Of a DNA stretch of 10,585 nucleotides, positions 709 to 10,585 are shown piece after piece (positions within the stretch are counted from its first letter, which is position 1; each line of letters opens with the position of its first letter). Under the pieces are notes generated by a model. The model saw only the letters and a program-made list of their open reading frames with translations. It was not told where the DNA came from and made no database searches. The translations under genes and the position numbers were made by a program. The DNA is taken from the IMG/VR virus record IMGVR_UViG_2541047825_000014; one strand, written 5' to 3'. The DNA comes from a virus. Lineage: Duplodnaviria; Heunggongvirae; Uroviricota; Caudoviricetes.

Positions 709-3700
709 ATGGGTAAAGGCAGCAGTAAGGGGCATACCCCGCGCGAAGCGAAGGACAACCTGAAGTCCACGCAGTTGCTGAGTGTGATCGATGCCATCAG
801 CGAAGGGCCGGTTGAAGGTCCGGTGGATGGGTTAAAAAGCGTGCTGCTGAACAGTACGCCGGTGCTGGACAGTGAGGGGAATACCAATATATCCGGCGTC
901 ACGGTGGTGTTCCGGGCAGGTGAGCAGGAGCAGACTCCGCCGGAGGGGTTTGAATCCTCCGGTTCCGAGACGGTGCTGGGTACGGAAGTGAAATATGACA
1001 CGCCGATCACCCGCACCATCACGTCGGCAAACATCGACCGTCTGCGCTTTACCTTCGGTGTGCAGGCACTGGTGGAAACCACCTCAAAGGGGGACAGGAA
1101 TCCATCGGAAGTCCGCCTGCTGGTTCAGATACAGCGTAACGGTGGCTGGGTGACGGAAAAAGACATCACCATTAAGGGCAAAACCACCTCGCAGTATCTG
1201 GCCTCGGTGGTGGTGGATAACCTGCCGCCGCGCCCGTTTAATATCCGGATGCGCAGGATGACGCCGGACAGCACCACAGACCAGCTGCAGAACAAAACGC
1301 TCTGGTCGTCATACACCGAAATCATCGATGTGAAACAGTGCTACCCGAACACGGCACTGGTTGGCGTGCAGGTGGACTCGGAGCAGTTCGGCAGCCAGCA
1401 GGTGAGCCGTAATTATCATCTTCGCGGGCGCATTCTGCAGGTGCCGTCGAACTATAACCCGCAGACGCGGCAATACAGCGGTATCTGGGACGGAACGTTA
1501 AAACCGGCATACAGCAACAACATGGCCTGGTGTCTGTGGGATATGCTGACCCATCCGCGCTACGGCATGGGGAAACGTCTTGGTGCGGCGGATGTGGATA
1601 AATGGGCGCTGTATGTCATCGGCCAGAATTGCGACCAGTCGGTGCCGGACGGCTTTGGCGGCACGGAGCCGCGCATCACCTGTAACGCTTACCTGACCAC
1701 ACAGCGCAAGGCGTGGGATGTGCTCAGTGATTTCTGCTCGGCGATGCGCTGTATGCCGGTATGGAACGGGCAGACGCTGACGTTCGTGCAGGACCGACCA
1801 TCAGATAAGGTGTGGACCTATAACCGCAGTAATGTGGTGATGCCGGATGATGGCGCGCCGTTCCGCTACAGTTTCAGCGCCCTGAAGGACCGCCATAATG
1901 CCGTTGAGGTGAACTGGACTGACCCGGATAACGGCTGGGAAACGGCAACAGAGCTTGTGGAGGACACGCAGACCATTGCCCGTTACGGTCGTAACGTCAC
2001 GAAGATGGATGCCTTTGGCTGTACCAGCCGGGGGCAGGCACACAGAGCCGGGCTGTGGCTGATTAAAACGGAGCTGCTGGAAACGCAGACCGTGGATTTC
2101 AGCGTGGGCGCAGAAGGGCTTCGCCATGTACCGGGCGATGTCATTGAAATCTGCGATGATGACTATGCGGGTATCAGCACCGGTGGTCGTGTGCTGGCGG
2201 TGAACAGCCAGACCCGGACGCTGACGCTCGACCGTGAAATCACGCTGCCATCCTCCGGTACCACGCTGATAAGCCTGGTTGACGGAAATGGCAATCCGGT
2301 CAGCGTGGAGGTTCAGTCCGTCACCGACGGCGTGAAGGTAAAAGTGAGCCGTGTTCCTGACGGTGTTGCTGAATACAGCGTATGGGGGCTGAAGCTGCCG
2401 ACGCTGCGCCAGCGCCTGTTCCGCTGTGTGAGTATCCGTGAGAACGACGACGGCACGTATGCCATCACTGCCGTGCAGCATGTACCGGAGAAAGAAGCCA
2501 TCGTGGATAACGGGGCGCACTTTGACGGTGACCAGAGCGGCACGGTGAATGGTGTCACGCCGCCAGCGGTGCAGCACCTGACTGCCGAAGTCACCGCAGA
2601 CAGCGGGGAGTATCAGGTACTGGCCCGCTGGGACACGCCGAAGGTGGTGAAGGGCGTGAGCTTCCTGCTTCGCCTGACCGTGGCAGCGGACGACGGCAGT
2701 GAGCGGCTGGTCAGCACAGCCAGGACGACGGAAACCACATACCGCTTCAGGCAACTGGCGCTGGGGCGTTACACGCTGACGGTCCGGGCGGTAAATGCGT
2801 GGGGACAGCAGGGCGATCCGGCATCGGTATCGTTCCGGATTGCCGCACCGGCAGTGCCGTCGAGGATTGAGCTGACGCCGGGCTATTTTCAGATAACTGC
2901 CACGCCGCATCTTGCGGTTTATGATCCGACGGTACAGTTTGATTTCTGGTTCTCGGAAACGCGGATTACCGATATCAGGCAGGTTGAAACCACAGCCCGC
3001 TATCTTGGCACGGCGCTGTACTGGATAGCCGCCAGTATCAATATCAAACCGGGCCATGATTATTATTTTTACATCCGCAGTGTGAACACCGTTGGCAAAT
3101 CGGCATTTGTGGAGGCTGTTGGCCAGCCGAGTGATGATGCATCCGGCTATCTGGATTTTTTCAAAGGAGAGATAGGGAAAAGCCATCTGGCTCAGGAGCT
3201 GTGGACGCAGATTGATAACGGTCAGCTTGCGCCTGACCTGGCTGAAATCAGGACGTCCATTACGGATGTCAGCAATGAAATCACGCAGACCGTCAATAAG
3301 AAACTGGAAGACCAGAGTGCGGCAATTCAGCAGATACAGAAGGTTCAGGTTGATACAAATAATAACCTGAACAGCATGTGGGCTGTGAAGCTGCAGCAGA
3401 TGCAGGACGGACGCCTTTATATCGCGGGTATTGGTGCCGGTATTGAGAACACCCCTGACGGCATGCAGAGTCAGGTGCTGCTGGCGGCGGACAGGATTGC
3501 GATGGTTAATCCTGCGAATGGCAACACAAAGCCGATGTTTGTTGGTCAGGGCGATCAGATATTCATGAACGAAGTGTTCCTGAAATATCTGACGGCTCCC
3601 ACCATTACCAGCGGCGGTAATCCTCCGGCATTTTCCCTGACACCGGACGGGCGGCTGACGGCAAAAAATGCCGATATCAGCGGTAACGTGAATGCGAACT

Positions 3701-4188
3701 CCGGGACGCTCAACAACGTCACGATTAACGAGAATTGCCGGGTTCTGGGAAAACTGTCCGCGAACCAGATTGAAGGCGATCTCGTTAAAACAGTGGGCAA
3801 AGCTTTCCCCCGTGACTCCCGTGCACCGGAACGGTGGCCATCAGGGACCATTACCGTCAGGGTTTATGACGATCAGCCGTTTGACCGGCAAATTGTTATT
3901 CCAGCGGTGGCTTTCAGCGGTGCCAGACATGAACGGGAGAATAGCGATACTTATTCGTCATGCCGCCTGATAGTGAAGAAAAACGGGGCTGAAATTTATA
4001 ACCGAACGGCTCTGGATAATACTCTGATTTACACGGGTGTTATTGATATGCCTGCAGGCAGTGGCGTAATGACACTGGAGTTTTCGGTATCAGCATGGTG
4101 GGTAAATGGCTGGTATCCCACAGCAAGTATCAGCGATTTGCTGGTTGTGGTGATGAAGAAAGCCACCGCAGGCATCAGTATCAGCTGA
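709..4188 (+). CDS. J: Tail tip / host specificity protein J (central tail fiber), with a divergent C-terminal receptor-binding region
   Basis: 1159-aa ORF starting [34 protein letters not shown], recognised as lambda gpJ over most of its length. GGAG at 697-700 precedes the ATG at 709. The last ~330 aa (from about nt 3180) are AT-richer and do not look like the lambda LamB-binding C-terminus as I recall it. Confidence 0.95.
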
Positions 4189-4206
4189 ATTTTATAACCC
4201 CAATAC

Positions 4207-4233
4207 GGGCGTCAGAAATGACGCCTTTTTTAT
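4207..4233 (+). terminator. Rho-independent terminator downstream of J
   Basis: GGCGTCA (4208-4214), loop GAAA, TGACGCC (4219-4225), followed by TTTTTT (4226-4231). Confidence 0.7.
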
Positions 4234-4255: not shown

Positions 4256-4855
4256 ATGCGTAAATTATGTGCTGTTATTCTGTCCGCAGTAGTCTGGCTG
4301 GTTGCCGCTGGTACGCCAGCGAGCGCAGCAGAGCATCAGTCCACACTAAGCGCCGGGTATCTTCAGACCCATACTGATATGCCAGGCAGTGATGACCTGA
4401 AGGGCATTAACGTGAAATACCGTTATGAATTTACGGACACGCTGGGGCTGGTGACGTCATTCAGTTATGCCAATGCCAAAGATGAGCAAAAAACGCATTA
4501 CAGCGATACCCGCTGGCATGAAGATTCAGTGCGTAACCGCTGGTTCAGCGTGATGGCGGGGCCGTCTGTACGCGTGAATGAATGGTTCAGTGCTTATGCG
4601 ATGGCGGGTGTGGCTTACAGCCGTGTTTCGACGTTCTCCGGGGATTATCTCCGCGTAACTGACAACAAGGGGAAAACGCACGATGTGCTGACCGGAAGTG
4701 ATGACGGTCGCCACAGCGACACGTCTCTGGCATGGGGGGCTGGCGTGCAGTTTAACCCGACCGAATCCGTGGCCATTGATATTGCTTATGAAGGTTCCGG
4801 CAGTGGCGACTGGCGCACTGACGGTTTCATCGTTGGTGTCGGTTATAAATTCTGA
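4256..4855 (+). CDS. lom: Lom outer membrane protein (Ail/Lom/OmpX/PagC beta-barrel family); lysogenic-conversion moron
   Basis: 199-aa ORF with a signal peptide (MRKLCAVILSAVVWLVAAGTPASA) and a C-terminal GFIVGVGYKF beta-barrel terminus, recognised as lambda Lom. Ribosome-binding site GAGAGG at 4243-4248. Flanked by terminators on both sides. Confidence 0.95.
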   Translation: MRKLCAVILSAVVWLVAAGTPASAAEHQSTLSAGYLQTHTDMPGSDDLKGINVKYRYEFTDTLGLVTSFSYANAKDEQKTHYSDTRWHEDSVRNRWFSVMAGPSVRVNEWFSAYAMAGVAYSRVSTFSGDYLRVTDNKGKTHDVLTGSDDGRHSDTSLAWGAGVQFNPTESVAIDIAYEGSGSGDWRTDGFIVGVGYKF

Positions 4856-4881: not shown

Positions 4882-4909
4882 AGCCCGCCGGTTCAGGCGG
4901 GCTTTTTTG
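4882..4909 (+). terminator. Rho-independent terminator downstream of lom
   Basis: AGCCCGCC (4882-4889), loop GGTTCA, GGCGGGCT (4896-4903), followed by TTTTTT (4903-4908). Confidence 0.7.
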
Positions 4910-4919
4910 TGGAGTGGAT

Positions 4920-6983
4920 ATGGCAGCAGTAAAAATCTCAGGTGTGCTGAAAGATGGTGCGGGAAAACCAATACAGAACTGCACTATTCAACTGAAGGCA
5001 AAGCGTAACAGCACCACGGTACTGGTCAACACAGTGGCCTCTGAAAATCCGGATGAAGCCGGGCGTTACAGCATGGATGTTGAGTATGGACAGTACAGCG
5101 TCACCCTGCTGGTTGAAGGTTTTCCGCCTTCACATGCCGGGACCATTACCGTCTATGAAGGTTCCAGACCAGGTACGCTGAATGATTTTCTCGGTGCCAT
5201 GACGGAAGATGATGTCATGCCGGAGGCATTGCGTCGTTTTGAGGAAATGGTGGAAGAAGCGGCACGCAACGCTGAAGCCGCCTCTCAGAGCGCAGCGGCA
5301 GCAAAGAAATCAGAAACAGCAGCGGCATCGTCCAGGAATGCGGCGAAAACATCAGAGACGAATGCAGGTAACAGCGCGAAAGCGGCAGCTTCTTCAAAAA
5401 CAGCCGCACAAAACGCAGCAACAGCGGCAGAACGTTCAGAGACAAATGCCCGTGCGTCAGAAGAAGCCTCCGCAGACAGTGAAGAGGCTTCCCGCCGTAA
5501 TGCAGAGTCAGCCGCTGAAAATGCCGGAGTCGCCACCACAAAAGCGCGGGAGGCCGCAGCAGACGCAACAAAGGCCGGGCAGAAAAAGGATGAGGCTCTG
5601 TCGGCAGCGACACGGGCTGAAAAGGCGGCAGACCGCGCAGAAGTCGCAGCGGAAGTGACTGCAGAGCCCTATGCGAATATAGTGCCGCCGCTGCCTGATG
5701 TGTGGATACCGTTTAACGATTCACTGGATATGATTGCGGGTTTTTCTCCGGGCTATAAAAAAATAGCTATTGGTGACGATGTGGTTCAGGTCGCCAGTGA
5801 TAAACAGGTTAATTTCAGTCGCGCATCAACGGCAACATATATCAACAAATCTGGCGAACTGAAAACGGCGGAAATTAATGAGCCGCGATTTGAGTGTGAT
5901 GGCCTGCTTATTGAGGGACAAAGAACGAACTACATGCTCAATTCGGAAAGTCCAGCCAGCTGGGGGAAGTCATCAAACATGGATGTGCCCGAAACCGGGA
6001 CGGATAGTTTTGGTTTTACTTATGGAAAGTTTGTCTGCAACGATTCTCTGGTTGGGCAAACTTCGGCTATTAATATGGCATCAATTGCTGCAACAAAGTC
6101 AGTTGATGTCTCAGGCGATAACAAGTACGTGACAACCTCATGCCGTTTTAAAACAGAACGACAGGTAAGGTTACGTATACGGTTTGATAAGTATGATGGT
6201 AGTGCAACAACTTTTCTTGGCGATGCGTACATTGATACGCAAACGCTTGAAATTAATATGACAGGTGGTGCTGCCGGCAGAATTACGGCACGAGTCAGGA
6301 AGGATAAGACCACAGGCTGGATTTTTGCAGAGGCAACGATTCAGGCAATTGATGGTGAGTTAAAAATAGGCTCTCAGATACAGTATTCTCCTGAGCAGGG
6401 TGGGGCAACAGTATCTGGTGACTATATTTATCTTGCCACCCCACAAGTAGAGAATGGGCCGTGTGTATCATCATTTATTATTTCAGGAGGCAGCGCAACG
6501 ACAAGAGCCAGTGATTTGGTTAGTATCCCCACCAGAAATAATCTTTATAAGTTACCATTTACTTTTTTACTTGAGATTCATAAAAACTGGGATATTGCAC
6601 CAAACGCCGCACCCCGCGTGTGGGATATAGCAGCAGCCAATACCGGGCAATCAGCAATTGCAGCAATCAACAGAGGTAGTGGTAAGTTATATATGAGTCT
6701 GTCAAACCCTTCAGGCTCGTATGTTAATAGCGCAGCGACAGATGTATTTGCAGAGAAAACCACATTTGGATGTATTGCAAAAGCTGATGGTCACTTTCAT
6801 GTGGTGACAAATGGTAAAGCGGTTAATGAAGTTTATTGTGAATATAATGGCGTGACCGCTGATAAAAATATCCGATTTGGAGGGCAGACGAATACTGGAG
6901 AACGACATCTGTTTGGCCATATTCGCAATTTCCGCATATGGCATAAAGAATTAAATGACAGGCAATTAAAAGAGGTCGTATGA
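4920..6983 (+). CDS. stf: Side tail fiber protein (Stf-like), mosaic: conserved N-terminal tail-attachment region, Ala-rich repetitive shaft, divergent AT-rich C-terminal putative receptor-binding domain
   Basis: ORF track gives 4914-6983 with a GTG start. I prefer the ATG at 4920 (product MAAVKISGVLKDG..., matching the lambda Stf N-terminus) with GGAG at 4911-4914. No tfa-like gene follows. Confidence 0.85.
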   Translation: MAAVKISGVLKDGAGKPIQNCTIQLKAKRNSTTVLVNTVASENPDEAGRYSMDVEYGQYSVTLLVEGFPPSHAGTITVYEGSRPGTLNDFLGAMTEDDVMPEALRRFEEMVEEAARNAEAASQSAAAAKKSETAAASSRNAAKTSETNAGNSAKAAASSKTAAQNAATAAERSETNARASEEASADSEEASRRNAESAAENAGVATTKAREAAADATKAGQKKDEALSAATRAEKAADRAEVAAEVTAEPYANIVPPLPDVWIPFNDSLDMIAGFSPGYKKIAIGDDVVQVASDKQVNFSRASTATYINKSGELKTAEINEPRFECDGLLIEGQRTNYMLNSESPASWGKSSNMDVPETGTDSFGFTYGKFVCNDSLVGQTSAINMASIAATKSVDVSGDNKYVTTSCRFKTERQVRLRIRFDKYDGSATTFLGDAYIDTQTLEINMTGGAAGRITARVRKDKTTGWIFAEATIQAIDGELKIGSQIQYSPEQGGATVSGDYIYLATPQVENGPCVSSFIISGGSATTRASDLVSIPTRNNLYKLPFTFLLEIHKNWDIAPNAAPRVWDIAAANTGQSAIAAINRGSGKLYMSLSNPSGSYVNSAATDVFAEKTTFGCIAKADGHFHVVTNGKAVNEVYCEYNGVTADKNIRFGGQTNTGERHLFGHIRNFRIWHKELNDRQLKEVV
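5260..5650 (+). repeat. Low-complexity Ala/Ser/Glu-rich degenerate repeats encoding the fiber shaft of Stf
   Basis: Translation contains repeated A-A-K/S-x-S-E-T-N/A-A motifs (AAKKSETAAASSRNAAKTSETNAGNSAKAAASSKTAAQNAATAAERSETNARASEEAS...). The GC-rich GCN-codon runs generate spurious overlapping ORFs on both strands. Confidence 0.6.
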
Positions 6984-7258
6984 AAGATTTAACTTTGAAG
7001 TTTCATGACAAACTGCAGTTTAAGGCCTTCCTGTCATCTCTTGGCTGGGCGGAAGATGAAGACCTCCAGAATAAACTGTTAGTTGATGAAATTGGTTTCA
7101 CCTACACAGAAACAGGGGTAACAGAAGAGGGAGAACCTGTCTGTATCCGGAATGATGGTTATTTTGTCAACATTCGCATTCTTGATGACTTGTTTGATGT
7201 TTCTGTATTCTCTGATTATGTCGTGGAGCTGGAAACACCGCTTCGGGAATGGAGCTGA
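6980..7258 (+). CDS. Hypothetical acidic 92-aa protein, translationally coupled to stf
   Basis: The ATG at 6980 overlaps the stf stop (ATGA at 6980-6983). AGAGG at 6971-6975. No signal peptide or TM segment. No family recognised. Confidence 0.55.
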   Translation: MKDLTLKFHDKLQFKAFLSSLGWAEDEDLQNKLLVDEIGFTYTETGVTEEGEPVCIRNDGYFVNIRILDDLFDVSVFSDYVVELETPLREWS

Positions 7259-7270
7259 AAGGAGGAAATA

Positions 7271-7558
7271 ATGGATATAAGCCCCTTACTTCATGCACTT
7301 TGTGCTGTGGCTGCGCAGATACTGGTTGGTCTTTTTACCGGAAACTGGGCTTACGGAGCGATAGCCGGTTGTACGTTCTTCATTGCGCGTGAACATACCC
7401 AGGCAGAATATCGCTGGATTGAAATGTTCGGGCATGGCAAGCGAATGAATATGCCGTGGTGGGGCGGTTTTGATCCGCGTGCTTGGGATGTGGCAAGCCT
7501 GATGGATTTTGCTGTGCCGGTGGTGGCGTGTCTGCTGATCTGGATGTTGATCCGTTAA
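7271..7558 (+). CDS. Hypothetical small membrane protein (95 aa, two predicted TM helices)
   Basis: Strong ribosome-binding site GGAGGA at 7261-7266, 5 nt before the ATG. Hydrophobic N-terminal segment (LLHALCAVAAQILVGLFTG...AIAGCTFFIA) and C-terminal segment (FAVPVVACLLIWMLI), with a Trp-rich loop (NMPWWGGFDPRAWD). No family recognised. Confidence 0.6.
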   Translation: MDISPLLHALCAVAAQILVGLFTGNWAYGAIAGCTFFIAREHTQAEYRWIEMFGHGKRMNMPWWGGFDPRAWDVASLMDFAVPVVACLLIWMLIR

Positions 7559-7573
7559 ATATAAAAAGTAAAA

Positions 7574-7609
7574 AGCCGCAGTAACTTGTCATGATAGGAT
7601 ACTGCGGCT
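7574..7609 (-). terminator. Hairpin likely terminating the minus-strand dinI-like transcript (possibly bidirectional)
   Basis: AGCCGCAGTA (7574-7583) and TACTGCGGCT (7600-7609) are reverse complements with a 16-nt loop. On the minus strand the hairpin is followed by TTTTTACTTTTTAT (complement of 7561-7573). There is no T-run on the + strand. Confidence 0.45.
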
Positions 7610-7675
7610 GGCTGGTTAACTTTCGATAGTGCGAGTATTGAATGATTTCCAGCCGTTACTGATTTTACGTGCTAA

Positions 7676-7924
7676 TTAGTGAACAAACCACTCATCAGCA
7701 GACTCCCAGGTATCTTTCAGAGTTTCCTGAACAAAAGTTTTAGCTGAATCTTTATCGGCGGTGCGCGTAACAGAAAGGCCATCGTTGCTGGTGGCTTTTA
7801 CGATCACCTCTACATCGTCATAACGTTTACTGATGCGTCGGGTTAATTCTTCCTTTAACGCATCCACAGCACCGTTTGGCATTTTAGTCATTTTTTCTTT
7901 GGCTATGCAGATCTCAATACGCAT
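7676..7924 (-). CDS. DinI-family DNA-damage-inducible protein (prophage-encoded DinI-like)
   Basis: 82-aa [38 protein letters not shown]...[11 protein letters not shown] with the characteristic DinI N-terminus and acidic C-terminal TWESAD(D/E)WF motif. GAGGGA ribosome-binding site upstream. Confidence 0.9.
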
Positions 7925-7937
7925 AAAAGTCCCTCTA

Positions 7938-7989
7938 TACTGTGTTTGTATACAGTGTTATTTTTAACTGTATGGATAAACAGTGTCAA
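7938..7989 (-). promoter_or_regulatory. SOS-regulated sigma70 promoter of the dinI-like gene with two tandem LexA boxes
   Basis: Two CTGT-N8-ACAG motifs: box 1 TACTGTGTTTGTATACAGTG (7938-7957) and box 2 AACTGTATGGATAAACAGTG (7966-7985). On the minus strand a perfect -35 TTGACA (complement of 7984-7989) abuts box 2, and a -10-like TAAAAA lies 17 nt downstream (complement of 7961-7966). The -35 overlaps the integrase stop codon. Confidence 0.7.
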
Positions 7990-9083
7990 GAGGTCTTATT
8001 TCTGCTCCTTTGGAGCTCTTCAAAACGATTATGTAAAGATTTCGGATACAGTTCGGTATATACCTGCCATAGCACGTTTAATGAACGATGCCCTGTAACC
8101 TGAGCGACTTCCTCAATACTAAAACCAGCCTCAAATAAGCGACTTGCCCCTTCTCTACGCAAATCATGGTATCGCAGATCTTTAATACCTAATTTGCTTC
8201 TTACCCTCTGAAATCCTGCAGTAACAGAAGTGCTGTTATATGGAAAAATGAATTCCGATTTTTTGGGCTGTCGTTGGACGATATCCCAGGCTTCCCCAAG
8301 CAAGGCTACTTTCATGTGGTTGCCTTCCTTTTTGCGTGGATCTTTCCTGTCTCTTACGAGTATAGATTTTTGTTCCTGGTCGAGATCTTCCCATCGTAAC
8401 CGGCATACTTCTCCGATCCGCATACAGGACCACACAGAAAATTTGAGGATATCAACGAACGGAATTTTTGAGCATTTATGAGTAGATCGTTGTTGAAGGC
8501 CTTCAATGAGCATGTCCAGTTCATCAGATGCTGGTCTACGATTACGACGGTTTGATTTACCAATCAAACCAAGTTTAAGTAGATATGGGCGAGCGCTTTT
8601 CGCCGGGTTTGATGTGTAATTAATTCCGTATACAGGTTTGGCCGCATCCAGAACACTGCCAAGATAACTAACATCGTGGCTGACTGTTGCTGGACCTGCA
8701 CCAGCGTTGTTTCTTAGCCTGCAATGTTCAATTACGTCATTTTCTGTCAGTTCAGATAGTTTGATCGCGGAGATGTCACTATCCATAAGCAGTTCCAGCA
8801 CATATCTTTTAGTACGGCCTGCTTTACCTCCGGCATTTGGGTCATTTAAATATTTGTGTAGTAAGTCACGGACTGTAAGTCCGTCAACTGCATTTGATGA
8901 TGGAATGCCATATAGATCTAATTCCATCACTTTCTGTGTTCCCCATGTTTTGGCATGAGCATGTTTAGGGAATGTTTTGCTTTCCCTGTAAGTGATAACA
9001 CCTTTTTCTTTGATAATCACATTACAGCGATAGCGTGGTGTGCCATCGGATTTTAGTCGTTTCTCTATGTTATAGTACGCCAT
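7986..9083 (-). CDS. int: Phage integrase, tyrosine site-specific recombinase family
   Basis: 365-aa ORF. The C-terminal catalytic region carries R...HxxR...Y hallmarks (RYHDLRREGASRLFEAG...VTGHRSLNVLWQVYTEL). It diverges from dusA with an 88-bp intergenic spacer. Confidence 0.93.
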   Translation of the reverse strand: MAYYNIEKRLKSDGTPRYRCNVIIKEKGVITYRESKTFPKHAHAKTWGTQKVMELDLYGIPSSNAVDGLTVRDLLHKYLNDPNAGGKAGRTKRYVLELLMDSDISAIKLSELTENDVIEHCRLRNNAGAGPATVSHDVSYLGSVLDAAKPVYGINYTSNPAKSARPYLLKLGLIGKSNRRNRRPASDELDMLIEGLQQRSTHKCSKIPFVDILKFSVWSCMRIGEVCRLRWEDLDQEQKSILVRDRKDPRKKEGNHMKVALLGEAWDIVQRQPKKSEFIFPYNSTSVTAGFQRVRSKLGIKDLRYHDLRREGASRLFEAGFSIEEVAQVTGHRSLNVLWQVYTELYPKSLHNRFEELQRSRNKTS

Positions 9084-9101
9084 TACACGACCTCGTTATT
9101 T

Positions 9102-9139
9102 CGGGTTCCCATAAAACGTGGGAACCTGTGCGGGAACCT
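9102..9139. repeat. Three copies of a GGGAACC/GGGTTCCC heptamer (one inverted, two direct) in the int-dusA intergenic region; candidate integrase or regulator binding sites or att-associated repeats
   Basis: cGGGTTCCCataaaacgtGGGAACCtgtgcGGGAACCtaacg read directly from the sequence. Confidence 0.4.
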
Positions 9140-9171
9140 AACGCGAGAAAAATAGCCTGAAATGTTCAAAA

Positions 9172-10209
9172 ATGCACGATAATCATGAAACACAAAAAAT
9201 TAATCAAACCAGCGTGATGCCTGAAAAAACTGGTGTTTACTGGAATTCTCGGTTTAGCATTGCTCCTATGCTTGACTGGACGGACAGACATTGCCGTTAT
9301 TTCTTGCGTCTGCTTTCCCGCAATACGTTGTTGTATACCGAAATGGTGACCACAGGGGCGATTATTCACGGTAAAGGTGATTACCTGGCGTACAGTGAAG
9401 AAGAACATCCGGTAGCGTTGCAACTCGGGGGTAGCGATCCGGCGGCGCTGGCACAGTGTGCGAAGCTGGCAGAAGCGCGTGGATATGATGAGATCAACCT
9501 GAATGTCGGCTGCCCGTCTGACCGGGTGCAGAACGGCATGTTTGGTGCGTGTCTGATGGGTAATGCGCAGCTGGTTGCCGACTGCGTGAAAGCGATGCGC
9601 GATGTGGTGTCGATTCCGGTGACGGTGAAAACGCGTATTGGCATCGATGATCAGGACAGCTATGAATTTCTCTGCGATTTCATCAACACCGTTTCCGGCA
9701 AAGGTGAGTGTGAGATGTTCATCATCCACGCACGTAAAGCCTGGCTTTCTGGGTTAAGTCCGAAAGAAAACCGTGAGATCCCGCCTCTCGATTATCCGCG
9801 TGTGTATCAACTGAAGCGTGACTTTCCGCATCTGACGATGTCGATTAACGGTGGTATCAAGTCGCTGGAAGAAGCTAAAGCGCATTTGCAACATATGGAT
9901 GGCGTGATGGTCGGGCGCGAGGCGTATCAGAATCCGGGTATTCTGGCGGCGGTAGACCGAGAGATTTTTGGTTCCTCGGATACCGATGCCGATCCGGTGG
10001 CGGTAGTGCGCGCCATGTATCCGTACATTGAGCGTGAACTCAGCCAGGGTACGTATCTCGGCCATATTACCCGGCATATGCTGGGCTTGTTCCAGGGTAT
10101 TCCTGGCGCGCGGCAGTGGCGGCGTTATTTAAGTGAAAATGCCCATAAAGCGGGTGCAGACATTAATGTGCTGGAACACGCGCTCAAACTGGTGGCGGAT
10201 AAGCGTTAA
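9172..10209 (+). CDS. dusA: tRNA-dihydrouridine synthase A (DusA)
   Basis: 345-aa ORF with a Dus-family TIM-barrel signature ([17 protein letters not shown]...NLNVGCPS...). The exact start is uncertain: the ATG at 9172 has no clear ribosome-binding site, and an in-frame alternative lies at 9217. The first ~150 nt are notably AT-rich compared with the rest of the gene. Confidence 0.9.
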
Positions 10210-10238
10210 CTTTTCACCAAAAAGTAGTCAAATTCACC

Positions 10239-10268
10239 ACGCCCTGCGCACCGTCGCGGGGCGTTTTG
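10239..10268 (+). terminator. Rho-independent terminator downstream of dusA
   Basis: ACGCCCTGCG (10239-10248), loop CACCGT, CGCGGGGCGT (10255-10264) giving a 10-bp stem with one U-G wobble, followed by TTTTGCT. Confidence 0.55.
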
Positions 10269-10290
10269 CTGTTAAATCAATAGATTATTT

Positions 10291-10307
10291 TTGGCATGAT
10301 TCTTGTA
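10291..10307 (+). promoter_or_regulatory. Sigma54 (-24/-12) type promoter upstream of pspG
   Basis: TTGGCATGATTCTTGTA fits the TGGCAC-N5-TTGCW pattern (GG at 10293-10294; TTGT at 10303-10306), about 35 nt upstream of the pspG ATG. pspG is known to be sigma54/PspF dependent. Two TTCACCA direct repeats (10213-10219, 10233-10239) lie upstream. Confidence 0.5.
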
Positions 10308-10342
10308 ATGCCAGCAAGAGATTTCATATTTGGGAGAGCATC

Positions 10343-10585
10343 ATGCTGGAACTACTTTTTGTAATTGGCTTTTTTGTCATGCTGATGGTCACCGGTGTTT
10401 CGTTGCTGGGTATTATCGCCGCGCTGATTGTGGCGACGGCCTTTATGTTCCTCGGCGGTATGCTGGCATTGATGATTAAGTTGCTGCCGTGGCTGCTGTT
10501 GGCGGTTGCGGTGGTGTGGGTGATCAGGGCGATTAAAGCACCAAAAGTGCCGAAATATCAGCGTTATGACCGCTGGCGTTACTAA
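10343..10585 (+). CDS. pspG: Phage shock protein G (PspG), small inner-membrane protein
   Basis: 80-aa product MLELLFVIGFFVMLMVTGVSLLGIIAAL...KYQRYDRWRY. Ribosome-binding site GGGAGAG at 10332-10338. The longer ORF-track start at 10133 is an in-frame upstream extension across the promoter and is not credible. Confidence 0.9.
   Translation: MLELLFVIGFFVMLMVTGVSLLGIIAALIVATAFMFLGGMLALMIKLLPWLLLAVAVVWVIRAIKAPKVPKYQRYDRWRY

What the first reader, a model, noticed from the sequence alone, without database searches (positions are those of the whole stretch)
7271..7558. Small two-TM membrane protein at the classic moron position between tail fiber genes and int
It has a strong ribosome-binding site, two hydrophobic helices and a Trp/Gly-rich loop. 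The site between tail fibers and integrase in lambdoid phages often holds superinfection-exclusion or defence morons, such as Cor-type and other membrane exclusion proteins. This ORF could block entry of related phages or modify the receptor, but it matches no family I can name.
Basis: inference. Interest (0 to 1): 0.6.

Follow-up and report, generated by a model that had tools for sequence, protein, structure and literature searches.

The report
Uncharacterised membrane protein trailing phage tail-fibre genes
This is a real, strongly conserved small membrane protein of unknown function that many different phages carry just after their tail-fibre genes and some bacteria keep in their chromosomes; it may block other phages, but nothing here tests that.

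Summary
The ORF at 7271-7558 is real. It has an AGGAGG ribosome-binding site, is under purifying selection (dN/dS 0.16-0.30), and matches PHROG 1443 (unknown function) over its full length. It is 100% identical to a phage mEp460 gene and occurs in 35% of complete E. coli genomes. AlphaFold (pLDDT 92) predicts three helices, not two.

The gene sits directly after the last receptor-binding gene in lambdoid, epsilon15-like, P2-like and P1-like phages, behind unrelated fibre types. It is absent from lambda. It is decayed in some virulent phages and syntenically fixed in Aeromonas, Leclercia and Silvania chromosomes. So it is an autonomous accessory gene.

It is not a textbook moron here. It has no promoter of its own and lies downstream of two terminators in the late tail operon.

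It has no detectable relationship to Cor, HK97 gp15, P22 SieA, holins, PADLOC defence proteins, Pfam families or any solved fold.

Superinfection exclusion remains the best guess (about 0.35) and is untested. Membrane orientation is unresolved. Interest is moderate.

The parts
7260..7265 (+). Shine-Dalgarno AGGAGG, 5 nt upstream of the ATG
   Evidence: Read directly from the sequence
7271..7558 (+). CDS of the 95-aa membrane protein, a PHROG 1443 member (stop TAA at 7556-7558)
   Evidence: dN/dS 0.16-0.30
7280..7339 (+). Helix 1 (aa 4-23), hydrophobic; conserved H8 and Q16 lie on one face
   Evidence: AF2 model; conservation; hydropathy
7346..7429 (+). Helix 2 (aa 26-53): hydrophobic part aa 26-39, then the near-invariant polar stretch R40-E41-H-T-Q44-A45-E46-Y-R48-W-I
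7430..7489 (+). Conserved Trp/Gly-rich connecting loop (aa 54-73: G.GKR.NMPWWGGFD.R.W, W72 invariant)
7490..7552 (+). Helix 3 (aa 74-94), the most hydrophobic segment; conserved S76, D79 and P83
7574..7609 (.). Stable hairpin between the convergent genes. The T-run is on the minus strand, so it is mainly the terminator of the dinI-like gene and at best a weak stop for the + strand late transcript.
   Evidence: Fold -21.5 kcal/mol, z -3.9; sequence
6980..7258 (+). Context: 92-aa ORF (PHROG 1361). It overlaps the stf stop and is a one-to-one partner of LamG-type fibres. It is a separate module from the target.
4914..6983 (+). Context: side tail fibre (phage_tail_N plus Laminin_G_3-like C-terminus), first gene of the stf / 92-aa / target transcription block
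4882..4903 (+). Context: intrinsic terminator after lom. With the one at 4207-4226, it means the downstream block needs antiterminated late transcription.

Best explanation
**What it is (shown, confidence about 0.9).** This is a stand-alone three-helix integral inner-membrane protein of an uncharacterised family, PHROG 1443. It is an autonomous accessory gene, not a virion or lysis component. It travels at the 3' end of receptor-binding-protein (RBP) gene clusters. In this prophage it is the last gene of the late tail operon.

**How it most likely works (inferred, confidence about 0.35).** It acts alone as an exclusion factor against other phages.
1. It is anchored in the inner membrane by three variable helices.
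2. It presents an almost invariant polar and aromatic element at one membrane interface. This element comprises H8 and Q16 on helix 1, R40-E41-x-x-Q44-A45-E46-x-R48 on helix 2, the PWWGGF..R.W loop, and S76/D79 on helix 3.
3. That element binds a conserved inner-membrane or envelope component, or the membrane-inserting ejection proteins of an incoming phage.
4. Genome entry is blocked after adsorption.

Because the element is invariant from E. coli to sphingomonads while the neighbouring fibres vary, the target must be a conserved envelope feature, not a strain-specific surface receptor.
For: **Shown**
- The gene is real and under selection.
- The three-helix model is confident.
- Conservation is concentrated in residues 40-73 plus H8, Q16 and D79, while the hydrophobic residues drift.
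- The gene lies directly after the last RBP gene in a lambdoid siphovirus (window; phage 21), a Uetakevirus podovirus, a P2-like Halomonas myovirus, a P1-like phage-plasmid, and Comamonas, Citrobacter, Pantoea and Chelativorans prophages. The upstream RBPs fall into at least four unrelated groups.
- It is variably present. It is absent from lambda's equivalent region. Its GC content is 9 points above its flanks.
- It works without a partner gene. Orphan chromosomal copies sit among unrelated core genes and are syntenic within Aeromonas, Leclercia and Silvania.
- It is pseudogenised where it was dragged into virulent phages 6947 and KFSST3 next to tail or tailspike genes. It is therefore dispensable for lytic growth.
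- It is abundant and multi-copy in E. coli: 1874 of 5426 genomes, median 2 copies, up to 7.

**By analogy (established knowledge)**
- Cor sits in the same slot in HK022.
- Small inner-membrane proteins such as HK97 gp15 and P22 SieA block DNA entry (records; PMC10883804).
Against: - No functional datum exists. All sources call it hypothetical, and no paper was found.
- It has no similarity to any characterised exclusion protein or PADLOC model.
- In this window it has no promoter and lies behind two terminators. Other phage contexts also show no convincing promoter. Expression in the lysogen, which classical exclusion needs, is therefore not supported.
- Syntenic vertical inheritance in three genera looks more like a cellular membrane function than a fast-turnover defence gene.
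- The invariant E/H/Q/E/D cluster could equally be a catalytic or ion-binding site.
- Orientation is unresolved. In the three-helix model, the positive-inside rule puts the conserved segment in the cytoplasm (K+R 6.0 against 0.7). The TMHMM note in the phage 21 record puts it in the periplasm.
Confidence: 0.35

Rival explanations
1. It is a cellular membrane-homeostasis protein that phages have borrowed. The family is primarily a bacterial small membrane protein, either a minimal membrane-embedded enzyme or an ion- or lipid-binding module built around the invariant E41/H8/Q44/E46/D79 cluster. Phage copies are host-derived cargo that adjust host envelope physiology.
For: - Copies are syntenic and vertically inherited in five Aeromonas genomes (pirin-X-RIO1-like-LpxM-LpxM), five Leclercia genomes and three Silvania genomes.
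- Sphingomonad copies lie next to pnp, ligA or cfa.
- Invariant charged and polar residues are predicted to lie at one membrane depth.
- No promoter or lysogeny signal is seen in phage contexts.
Against: - There is no match to any enzyme, transporter or Pfam family, even at relaxed thresholds, across 98 members.
- There is no fold match.
- There is no conserved functional neighbour.
- The overwhelming majority of copies are in phages or prophages, at one specific position.
Confidence: 0.18
2. It modulates an envelope-glycan pathway, giving receptor masking or seroconversion-like effects. The protein would interfere with a lipid-linked (undecaprenyl-phosphate, LPS or O-antigen) assembly step at the inner membrane. 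That would change the surface glycans that tail fibres and tailspikes recognise.
For: - It is linked to RBP genes, including depolymerase-type tailspikes.
- In P22 the slot after the tailspike holds gtrABC.
- Small stand-alone phage proteins that alter O-antigen exist, namely Gnarl1-3 (PMC12373910).
- The Aeromonas copy is one gene away from two LpxM-type lipid A acyltransferases.
Against: - It is unrelated to the Gnarl proteins, whose supplement lacks the motif, and to GtrA and other Pfam families.
- The same protein is conserved in hosts with very different or no classical LPS, such as sphingomonads (the LPS point is my own knowledge).
- In Aeromonas the LpxM genes are convergent and separated from it by a kinase gene.
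- Late expression would leave little time to remodel the surface.
Confidence: 0.15
3. It has a late-lytic membrane function. As the last gene of the late operon, it would tune lysis timing (antiholin-like) or otherwise condition the membrane late in infection.
For: - It is co-transcribed with tail-fibre genes through short gaps or 4-nt overlaps (window, L012, L032, L033).
- In Uetakevirus, Comamonas and P1-like elements it lies immediately upstream of lysis genes: holin/endolysin, or lydA/lydB.
- One of 98 members gives a sub-threshold Phage_holin_8 hit.
Against: - In lambdoid phages it is far from the S/R/Rz cassette.
- Orphan chromosomal copies have no endolysin nearby.
- It is decayed in virulent phages.
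- Extreme conservation of a polar segment is atypical of holins and antiholins (my own knowledge).
Confidence: 0.12
4. It is a tail-fibre assembly or virion component.
For: It is always adjacent to RBP genes.
Against: - It is an integral membrane protein.
- It follows unrelated fibre families.
- It appears only once, after two fibre-plus-partner pairs, in L060, where the ~94-aa ORFs are the fibre-specific partners.
- It exists in chromosomes with no phage nearby.
- It is absent from lambda.
Confidence: 0.04

Closest known systems
Cor superinfection-exclusion protein (HK022, phi80, N15)
   Same: It is a small accessory gene in the same genomic slot, after the tail-tip or fibre genes and before int (HK022 record). 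It is variably present among lambdoid phages.
   Different: Cor is a secreted outer-membrane lipoprotein with a signal peptide and a lipobox (LSGC in the HK022 sequence). The target has no lipobox or basic n-region and is predicted to be a three-helix integral membrane protein. hhalign probability is 0.1%.
HK97 gp15 (moron-encoded inner-membrane exclusion protein)
   Same: It is a small membrane protein carried as an accessory gene inside the tail-gene region, and it acts alone (record; function from my own knowledge of Cumby et al. 2012).
   Different: gp15 has 62 aa and one TM segment. It sits next to the tape-measure gene and has its own terminator. hhalign probability is 0.3%.
P22 SieA
   Same: It is an inner-membrane protein that alone blocks DNA entry (PMC10883804, listed).
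   Different: SieA has 164 aa, its own annotated promoter, and a different location between gene 16 and mnt. hhalign probability is 0.2%.
Lambda-type morons such as lom (present in this window at 4256-4855)
   Same: It is an accessory gene in the tail-distal region with composition distinct from its flanks.
   Different: lom is bracketed by its own terminators. The target has no promoter of its own and is fused to the fibre operon, 12 nt behind the 92-aa ORF.
Seroconversion genes downstream of tailspikes (P22 gtrABC) and Gnarl1-3 O-antigen-altering accessory proteins
   Same: These are RBP-adjacent or stand-alone phage accessory genes acting on the envelope (PMC12373910).
   Different: No sequence relationship was found. 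gtrABC is transcribed divergently from its own promoter. The Gnarl proteins are different genes (KpV79 orf, Mu p07, Mangalitsa orf).
PhoR N-terminal membrane hairpin (PF11808)
   Same: It is the only recurrent weak Pfam signal, seen in 7 of 98 members with a best E-value of 0.0032. The architecture is similar: a tight TM hairpin followed by a charged helix.
   Different: It scores far below the gathering threshold (13.8 against 27.1 bits). This is most likely compositional or architectural resemblance only.

Membership tests
PHROG 1443 (unknown function) | Full-length match to the family profile | tested here: met
   E 1.7e-57, 192.6 bits, residues 1-95 aligned to profile positions 1-95 of 97
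Moron (Hendrix/Juhala sense) | Present or absent between otherwise homologous phage genomes | tested here: met
   Present in phage 21 and mEp460. The family HMM finds nothing in lambda's I-J-lom-stf...int region, with phage 21 and phiv142-3 as positive controls.
Moron (Hendrix/Juhala sense) | Own promoter upstream of the gene | tested here: not met
   There are no + strand sigma-70-like sites in 6700-8100. Only two chance-level 9/12 matches lie deep inside stf. The gap to the upstream ORF is 12 nt. None was found in the phiv142-3 or Leclercia contexts either. The scan covers consensus sigma-70 promoters only.
Moron (Hendrix/Juhala sense) | Own terminator downstream | tested here: inconclusive
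   The hairpin at 7574-7609 is stable, but its T-run is on the minus strand. In L060 the homologue is bracketed by two near-identical terminators.
Moron (Hendrix/Juhala sense) | Base composition different from its neighbours | tested here: met
   GC is 51.7% (GC3 52.1%), against 41.9% for orf92, 43.1% for the stf C-terminal half, 43.4% for dinI-like and 42.5% for int.
Cor family | Signal peptide with lipobox Cys (outer-membrane lipoprotein) and sequence similarity | tested here: not met
   There is no basic n-region (the protein starts MDISP). C11 is preceded by H-A-L and is not conserved. hhalign probability against HK022 Cor is 0.1%.
HK97 gp15 family | Sequence or profile similarity; location next to the tape-measure gene | tested here: not met
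   hhalign probability 0.3%. The target follows the side fibre, not the tape-measure gene.
P22 SieA family | Sequence or profile similarity | tested here: not met
   hhalign probability 0.2%
Known anti-phage defence proteins (PADLOC-DB v2) | Match to any defence-system model | tested here: not met
   No family matched at E <= 1
Holins / antiholins | Match to a holin family and adjacency to an endolysin gene | tested here: not met
   The window protein has no holin Pfam hit. One of 98 members has a sub-threshold Phage_holin_8 hit. The window contains no endolysin.
GtrA-type / seroconversion enzymes | Pfam GtrA-like or glycosyl/acetyl-transferase domain | tested here: not met
   No such hits for the protein or for 98 family members
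T4 Imm, epsilon15 gp21, D3 Iap (small membrane exclusion or polymerase-inhibitor proteins) | Sequence similarity | not tested
   These sequences were not retrieved. Indirectly, the only PHROG hits of the target are three unknown-function families.
Any solved or viral predicted fold | Specific structural match | tested here: not met

The most novel reading that the evidence does not exclude
The family is a previously unrecognised minimal membrane module of about 95 aa, with three helices and an invariant intramembrane or interfacial E41/H8/Q44/E46/D79 plus Trp-loop site. It acts on a universal proteobacterial envelope component. It is mobilised together with receptor-binding cassettes across all major tailed-phage architectures. 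On this reading there would be a general 'RBP plus entry/envelope-modifier' cassette, with a new mechanism of exclusion or envelope remodelling, and with cellular orthologues doing the same job in Aeromonas, Leclercia and sphingomonads.
Probability: 0.12. Interest if true: 0.75.

Novelty: new member of a known kind. Interest (0 to 1): 0.42.

Why it matters
One in three complete E. coli genomes carries this gene, often in several copies. It recurs at the same position in lambdoid, P22/epsilon15-like, P2-like and P1-like phages, yet nothing is known about it. If it is an exclusion or envelope-modifying factor, it would be among the most widespread single-gene phage-phage interference functions in enterobacteria. 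That would bear on phage-therapy host range and on prophage-mediated immunity. Its near-invariant 35-residue element offers a precise handle for finding the conserved host target. If it instead proves to be a cellular membrane protein borrowed by phages, it is an unusually clean case of a tiny host gene being mobilised together with tail-fibre modules.

Tried and rejected
- **Family libraries:** Pfam, NCBIfam and PADLOC gave nothing for the protein. A relaxed Pfam scan of 98 diverse members gave only a sub-threshold PhoR N-terminal signal in 7 of 98.
- **PDB sequence searches:** Profiles A1 and A2 found nothing credible. One E ~1.7 hit to the yeast Ard1 'REVHQAEY' peptide was rejected as chance.
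- **Named exclusion proteins:** Direct profile comparison with HK97 gp15, P22 SieA and HK022 Cor was negative.
- **Gnarl O-antigen modifiers:** These are different genes, and the family motif is absent from that paper's supplements.
- **Literature:** Searches on FIG00639861, Ybl63, phage 21 and phiv142-3 found no functional data. In the phiv142-3 study the homologue, Orf5, was not tested.
- **'Receptor-matched exclusion partner of one fibre type':** Rejected, because the upstream RBPs are unrelated.
- **Functional link to the 92-aa ORF:** Rejected. That ORF pairs one-to-one with LamG-type fibres, and the target occurs without it.
- **Early topology inference:** My first inference of a periplasmic loop, drawn from K/R-rich C-terminal tails, was not sustained. 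Full charge counts favour the opposite orientation for a three-helix model, so I report orientation as unresolved.
- **IMG/VR scan:** It returned only near-identical E. coli contexts among the 80 loci kept, so it added a prevalence figure (438 contigs) but no new diversity.

Full report
**Context of the window.** The window is the right end of a lambdoid prophage in an Escherichia chromosome. The gene order is:
- tail assembly I (1-648) and J (709-4188);
- lom (4256-4855);
- a side tail fibre with a phage_tail_N domain and a Laminin_G_3-like C-terminus (4914-6983);
- a 92-aa ORF (6980-7258, PHROG 1361);
- the target ORF (7271-7558);
- a convergent DinI-like gene (7676-7924, minus strand);
- a tyrosine integrase (7986-9083, minus strand);
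- host dusA (9172-10209) and pspG.

The best genomic matches are E. coli chromosomes with the same arrangement.

- The ORF has 95 codons. AGGAGG lies at 7260-7265, five bases before the ATG, and the ORF starts 12 nt after the stop of the 92-aa ORF.
- It matches PHROG 1443 over its full length (E 1.7e-57).
- It is 100% identical to a gene of phage mEp460 and 96% identical to CPT_21_24 of phage 21.
- It has 568 homologues in the word-indexed search and 436 cluster representatives at 50% identity in the exhaustive search. All are stand-alone proteins of about 90-120 aa.
- Against diverged copies, dN/dS is 0.16 (phiv142-3, dS 0.88), 0.20 and 0.30.
- At megablast level the ORF alone is present in 1874 of 5426 complete E. 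coli genomes, at 3931 places, with a median of 2 and a maximum of 7 copies per genome. It is always annotated 'hypothetical protein'.
- It is also found in 438 IMG/VR contigs and 40 plasmid records, including phage-plasmids.

**Anatomy.**
- Hydropathy shows two hydrophobic stretches, residues 3-39 and 74-94.
- AlphaFold2 with a 26-sequence alignment gives a confident model (mean pLDDT 92.1, pTM 0.76) with three helices at 4-23, 26-53 and 74-94. The first stretch is therefore a tight hairpin.
- Conservation is the reverse of what a generic membrane plug would show. The hydrophobic residues drift, while a polar and aromatic element is almost fixed.
- Among 26 sequences from Escherichia, Aeromonas, Comamonas, Citrobacter, Leclercia and Salmonella, the invariant positions are D2, H8, Q16, G29, R40, E41, T43-I50, R58, M61, P62, W64-F67, W72, D79 and P83.
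- Among 98 representatives at 29-57% identity, E41 and W72 are invariant, and H8, R40, Q44, A45, E46 and P83 are at least 90% conserved.
- By helix geometry, H8, R40/E41 and D79 should lie at a similar depth near one interface. This is my inference from the helix boundaries, not a measured contact.

**Topology is unresolved.**
- In a three-helix model, the N-terminus and the conserved segment are on the same side.
- That side carries 6.0 K+R per protein (N-tail 0.71, polar part of helix 2 2.42, loop 2.88). The other side carries 0.7.
- The positive-inside rule therefore favours N-in, conserved segment cytoplasmic, and C-out.
- The phage 21 record quotes TMHMM as '2 TMDs, N-in, C-in', which would place the segment in the periplasm. 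It also quotes a SignalP signal peptide. A cleaved signal peptide is hard to reconcile with the conserved H8 and Q16.
- My first reading, from C-terminal tails alone, pointed the other way, and I withdraw it.

**Where the gene lives.** Its position is strikingly constant across unrelated genome architectures. It lies directly after the last receptor-binding gene in each of these:
- lambdoid siphoviruses (window; phage 21);
- a Uetakevirus podovirus, between the tailspike and the lysis cassette;
- the P2-like Halomonas phage phiHAP-1, after the fibre-assembly gene and before the sheath gene. From my own knowledge, this corresponds to the P2 Z/fun cargo site;
- a P1-like Leclercia phage-plasmid, after two fibre-plus-partner pairs and before lydA/lydB;
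- prophages of Comamonas, Citrobacter, Pantoea, Chelativorans and Pigmentiphaga.

Junctions are often only 10-15 nt or a 4-nt overlap. The upstream RBPs belong to at least four unrelated groups:
- LamG-type fibres with a ~93-aa partner;
- pectate-lyase-type or depolymerase-type spikes;
- PHROG 2837-type proteins;
- others.

The ~92-aa ORF pairs one-to-one with LamG-type fibres and is a separate module.

**Evidence that it is accessory and autonomous.**
- The family HMM finds the gene in phage 21 and phiv142-3 but nothing in lambda's homologous I-to-int region. It also finds nothing in the fetched HK022, HK97 and P22 stretches.
- Its GC content (51.7%) stands out from its flanks (42-43%).
- In virulent phages 6947 and Kuttervirus KFSST3, a copy lies right behind a tail or tailspike gene. 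It is broken by frameshifts and stop codons. It appears to have been dragged in with an RBP module and then decayed. An intact shorter copy persists in Aeromonas jumbo phages.
- Intact copies also sit in ordinary chromosomal contexts with no phage genes nearby. In Aeromonas the locus is pirin - X - PA4780-type RIO1-like kinase - two LpxM-type acyltransferases, syntenic in five genomes. Leclercia (five genomes) and Silvania (three genomes) each have their own conserved locus. Sphingomonad copies lie next to pnp, ligA or cfa.
- There is no conserved partner gene. The protein therefore works alone, and its function can benefit a cell without a phage.

**Expression signals.**
- In the window, lom is bracketed by intrinsic terminators at 4207-4226 and 4882-4903.
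- The stf / 92-aa / target block follows with no + strand sigma-70-like promoter better than chance.
- The block should therefore be read by antiterminated late transcription. This is an inference from lambdoid biology.
- The hairpin after the stop codon (7574-7609, -21.5 kcal/mol, z -3.9) has its T-run on the minus strand. It is mainly the terminator of the dinI-like gene.
- The phiv142-3 and Leclercia contexts put a terminator in front of the gene but again show no convincing promoter.
- The gene therefore fails the 'own promoter' criterion of a textbook moron. It meets the presence/absence and composition criteria.

**Comparison with what is known.**
- Pfam, NCBIfam and PADLOC gave no hit.
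- PDB sequences gave no hit.
- No specific fold match was found. The afdb50 library was unavailable.
- hhalign probabilities against HK97 gp15, P22 SieA and HK022 Cor are 0.3%, 0.2% and 0.1%. Cor nevertheless occupies the equivalent slot in HK022.
- There is no lipobox.
- The Gnarl O-antigen modifiers are different genes.
- No publication deals with the family. The only names are 'hypothetical protein', FIG00639861 and 'Ybl63'.

**Interpretation.**
- What is shown: this is a real, abundant, strongly constrained, autonomous three-helix membrane protein that hitch-hikes at the 3' end of RBP gene clusters.
- What is inferred: its role.
- I rank single-protein interference with incoming phages at the inner membrane first, at about 0.35. 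The reasons are that it is cargo, that it is dispensable for lytic growth, that it is kept by lysogens and by some chromosomes, that it is multi-copy, and that known exclusion genes share its slot.
- The invariance of its polar element behind variable fibres argues for a conserved envelope target, not a specific receptor.
- The reading is weakened by the lack of lysogenic expression signals, by the core-like synteny in three genera, and by a residue pattern that could be catalytic or ion-binding.
- The rivals are a borrowed cellular membrane function (0.18), modulation of a lipid-linked glycan pathway (0.15), a late-lytic or lysis-timing role (0.12), and fibre assembly (0.04).

**Verdict.**
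The accessory-gene reading holds. The classic-moron and Cor-like readings do not. Exclusion remains an untested best guess.
- The gene belongs to a catalogued but uncharacterised family. I rate it a new, uncharacterised member of the known kind 'tail-fibre-adjacent phage accessory membrane proteins', of moderate interest (0.42).
- There is a roughly 12% chance that it represents a new, broadly distributed envelope-acting mechanism.

Noticed in passing
window 6980-7258: The 92-aa ORF (PHROG 1361, unknown function) overlaps the stf stop codon by 4 nt. Homologous ~93-95-aa ORFs follow each LamG-type fibre one-to-one, including two fibre-plus-partner pairs in a Leclercia P1-like phage-plasmid (L060). 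It is probably a fibre-specific assembly partner or chaperone.
   Followed up: partly
window 7940-7955 and 7968-7983: Two exact CTGT-N8-ACAG (LexA-box-like) sites overlap the -35/-10 of the promoter-like site in front of the DinI-like gene (7676-7924, minus strand). Chance expectation is 0.14 matches and 2 were found. This suggests SOS control of the prophage dinI homologue.
   Followed up: partly
window 4207-4226 and 4882-4903: lom (4256-4855) is bracketed by two clean intrinsic terminators, which is textbook moron architecture. This contrasts with the target ORF.
   Followed up: partly
window 7986-10585: The prophage integrase abuts dusA (TIGR00742, E 6e-175). The dusA ORF as read starts with an extra N-terminal stretch. 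pspG lies at the window end. The prophage is therefore integrated at the 5' end of dusA.
   Followed up: partly
L064 ~3990-4200 (Escherichia phage 6947); L065 ~3990-4160 (Salmonella Kuttervirus KFSST3): Unannotated, frameshifted or stop-interrupted remnants of the same family lie immediately 3' of a large tail or tailspike gene in virulent phages. These look like relics of RBP-module acquisition from temperate phages.
   Followed up: yes
L060 5912-5931 and 6311-6328: In the Leclercia phage-plasmid the homologue is bracketed by two nearly identical terminator hairpins (AAGCGCCTCCGGGCGCTT followed by a T-run). This looks like a discrete cassette inserted at a terminator.
   Followed up: partly
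L006, L015, L017, L018, L022 (Aeromonas), about 6001-6309 in each: A syntenic chromosomal copy lies between a pirin gene and a convergent PA4780-type RIO1-like kinase gene, which is followed by two LpxM-type lipid A acyltransferase genes. The LPS neighbourhood is suggestive but not operonic.
   Followed up: partly
proteins P0144, P0193, P0258: A subfamily carries an insertion of about 45 residues of soluble-looking sequence (…FGKPF…AEWHY…AEY…) between the RWIE.FG helix and the MPWWGGF loop. The connecting loop therefore tolerates an extra domain.
   Followed up: no
window ~5250-5700: The fibre gene contains an Ala/Ser/Glu/Lys-rich low-complexity, coiled-coil-like stretch with AT skew up to 0.53. 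It generates several long spurious ORFs in other frames and on the opposite strand.
   Followed up: no
L001 6386-9835 (phage 21): In phage 21 the slot just beyond the target gene holds a complete sitABCD iron/manganese transporter operon on the opposite strand. In the window the same slot holds only the dinI-like gene. The region downstream of the target is therefore a variable cargo region.
   Followed up: no
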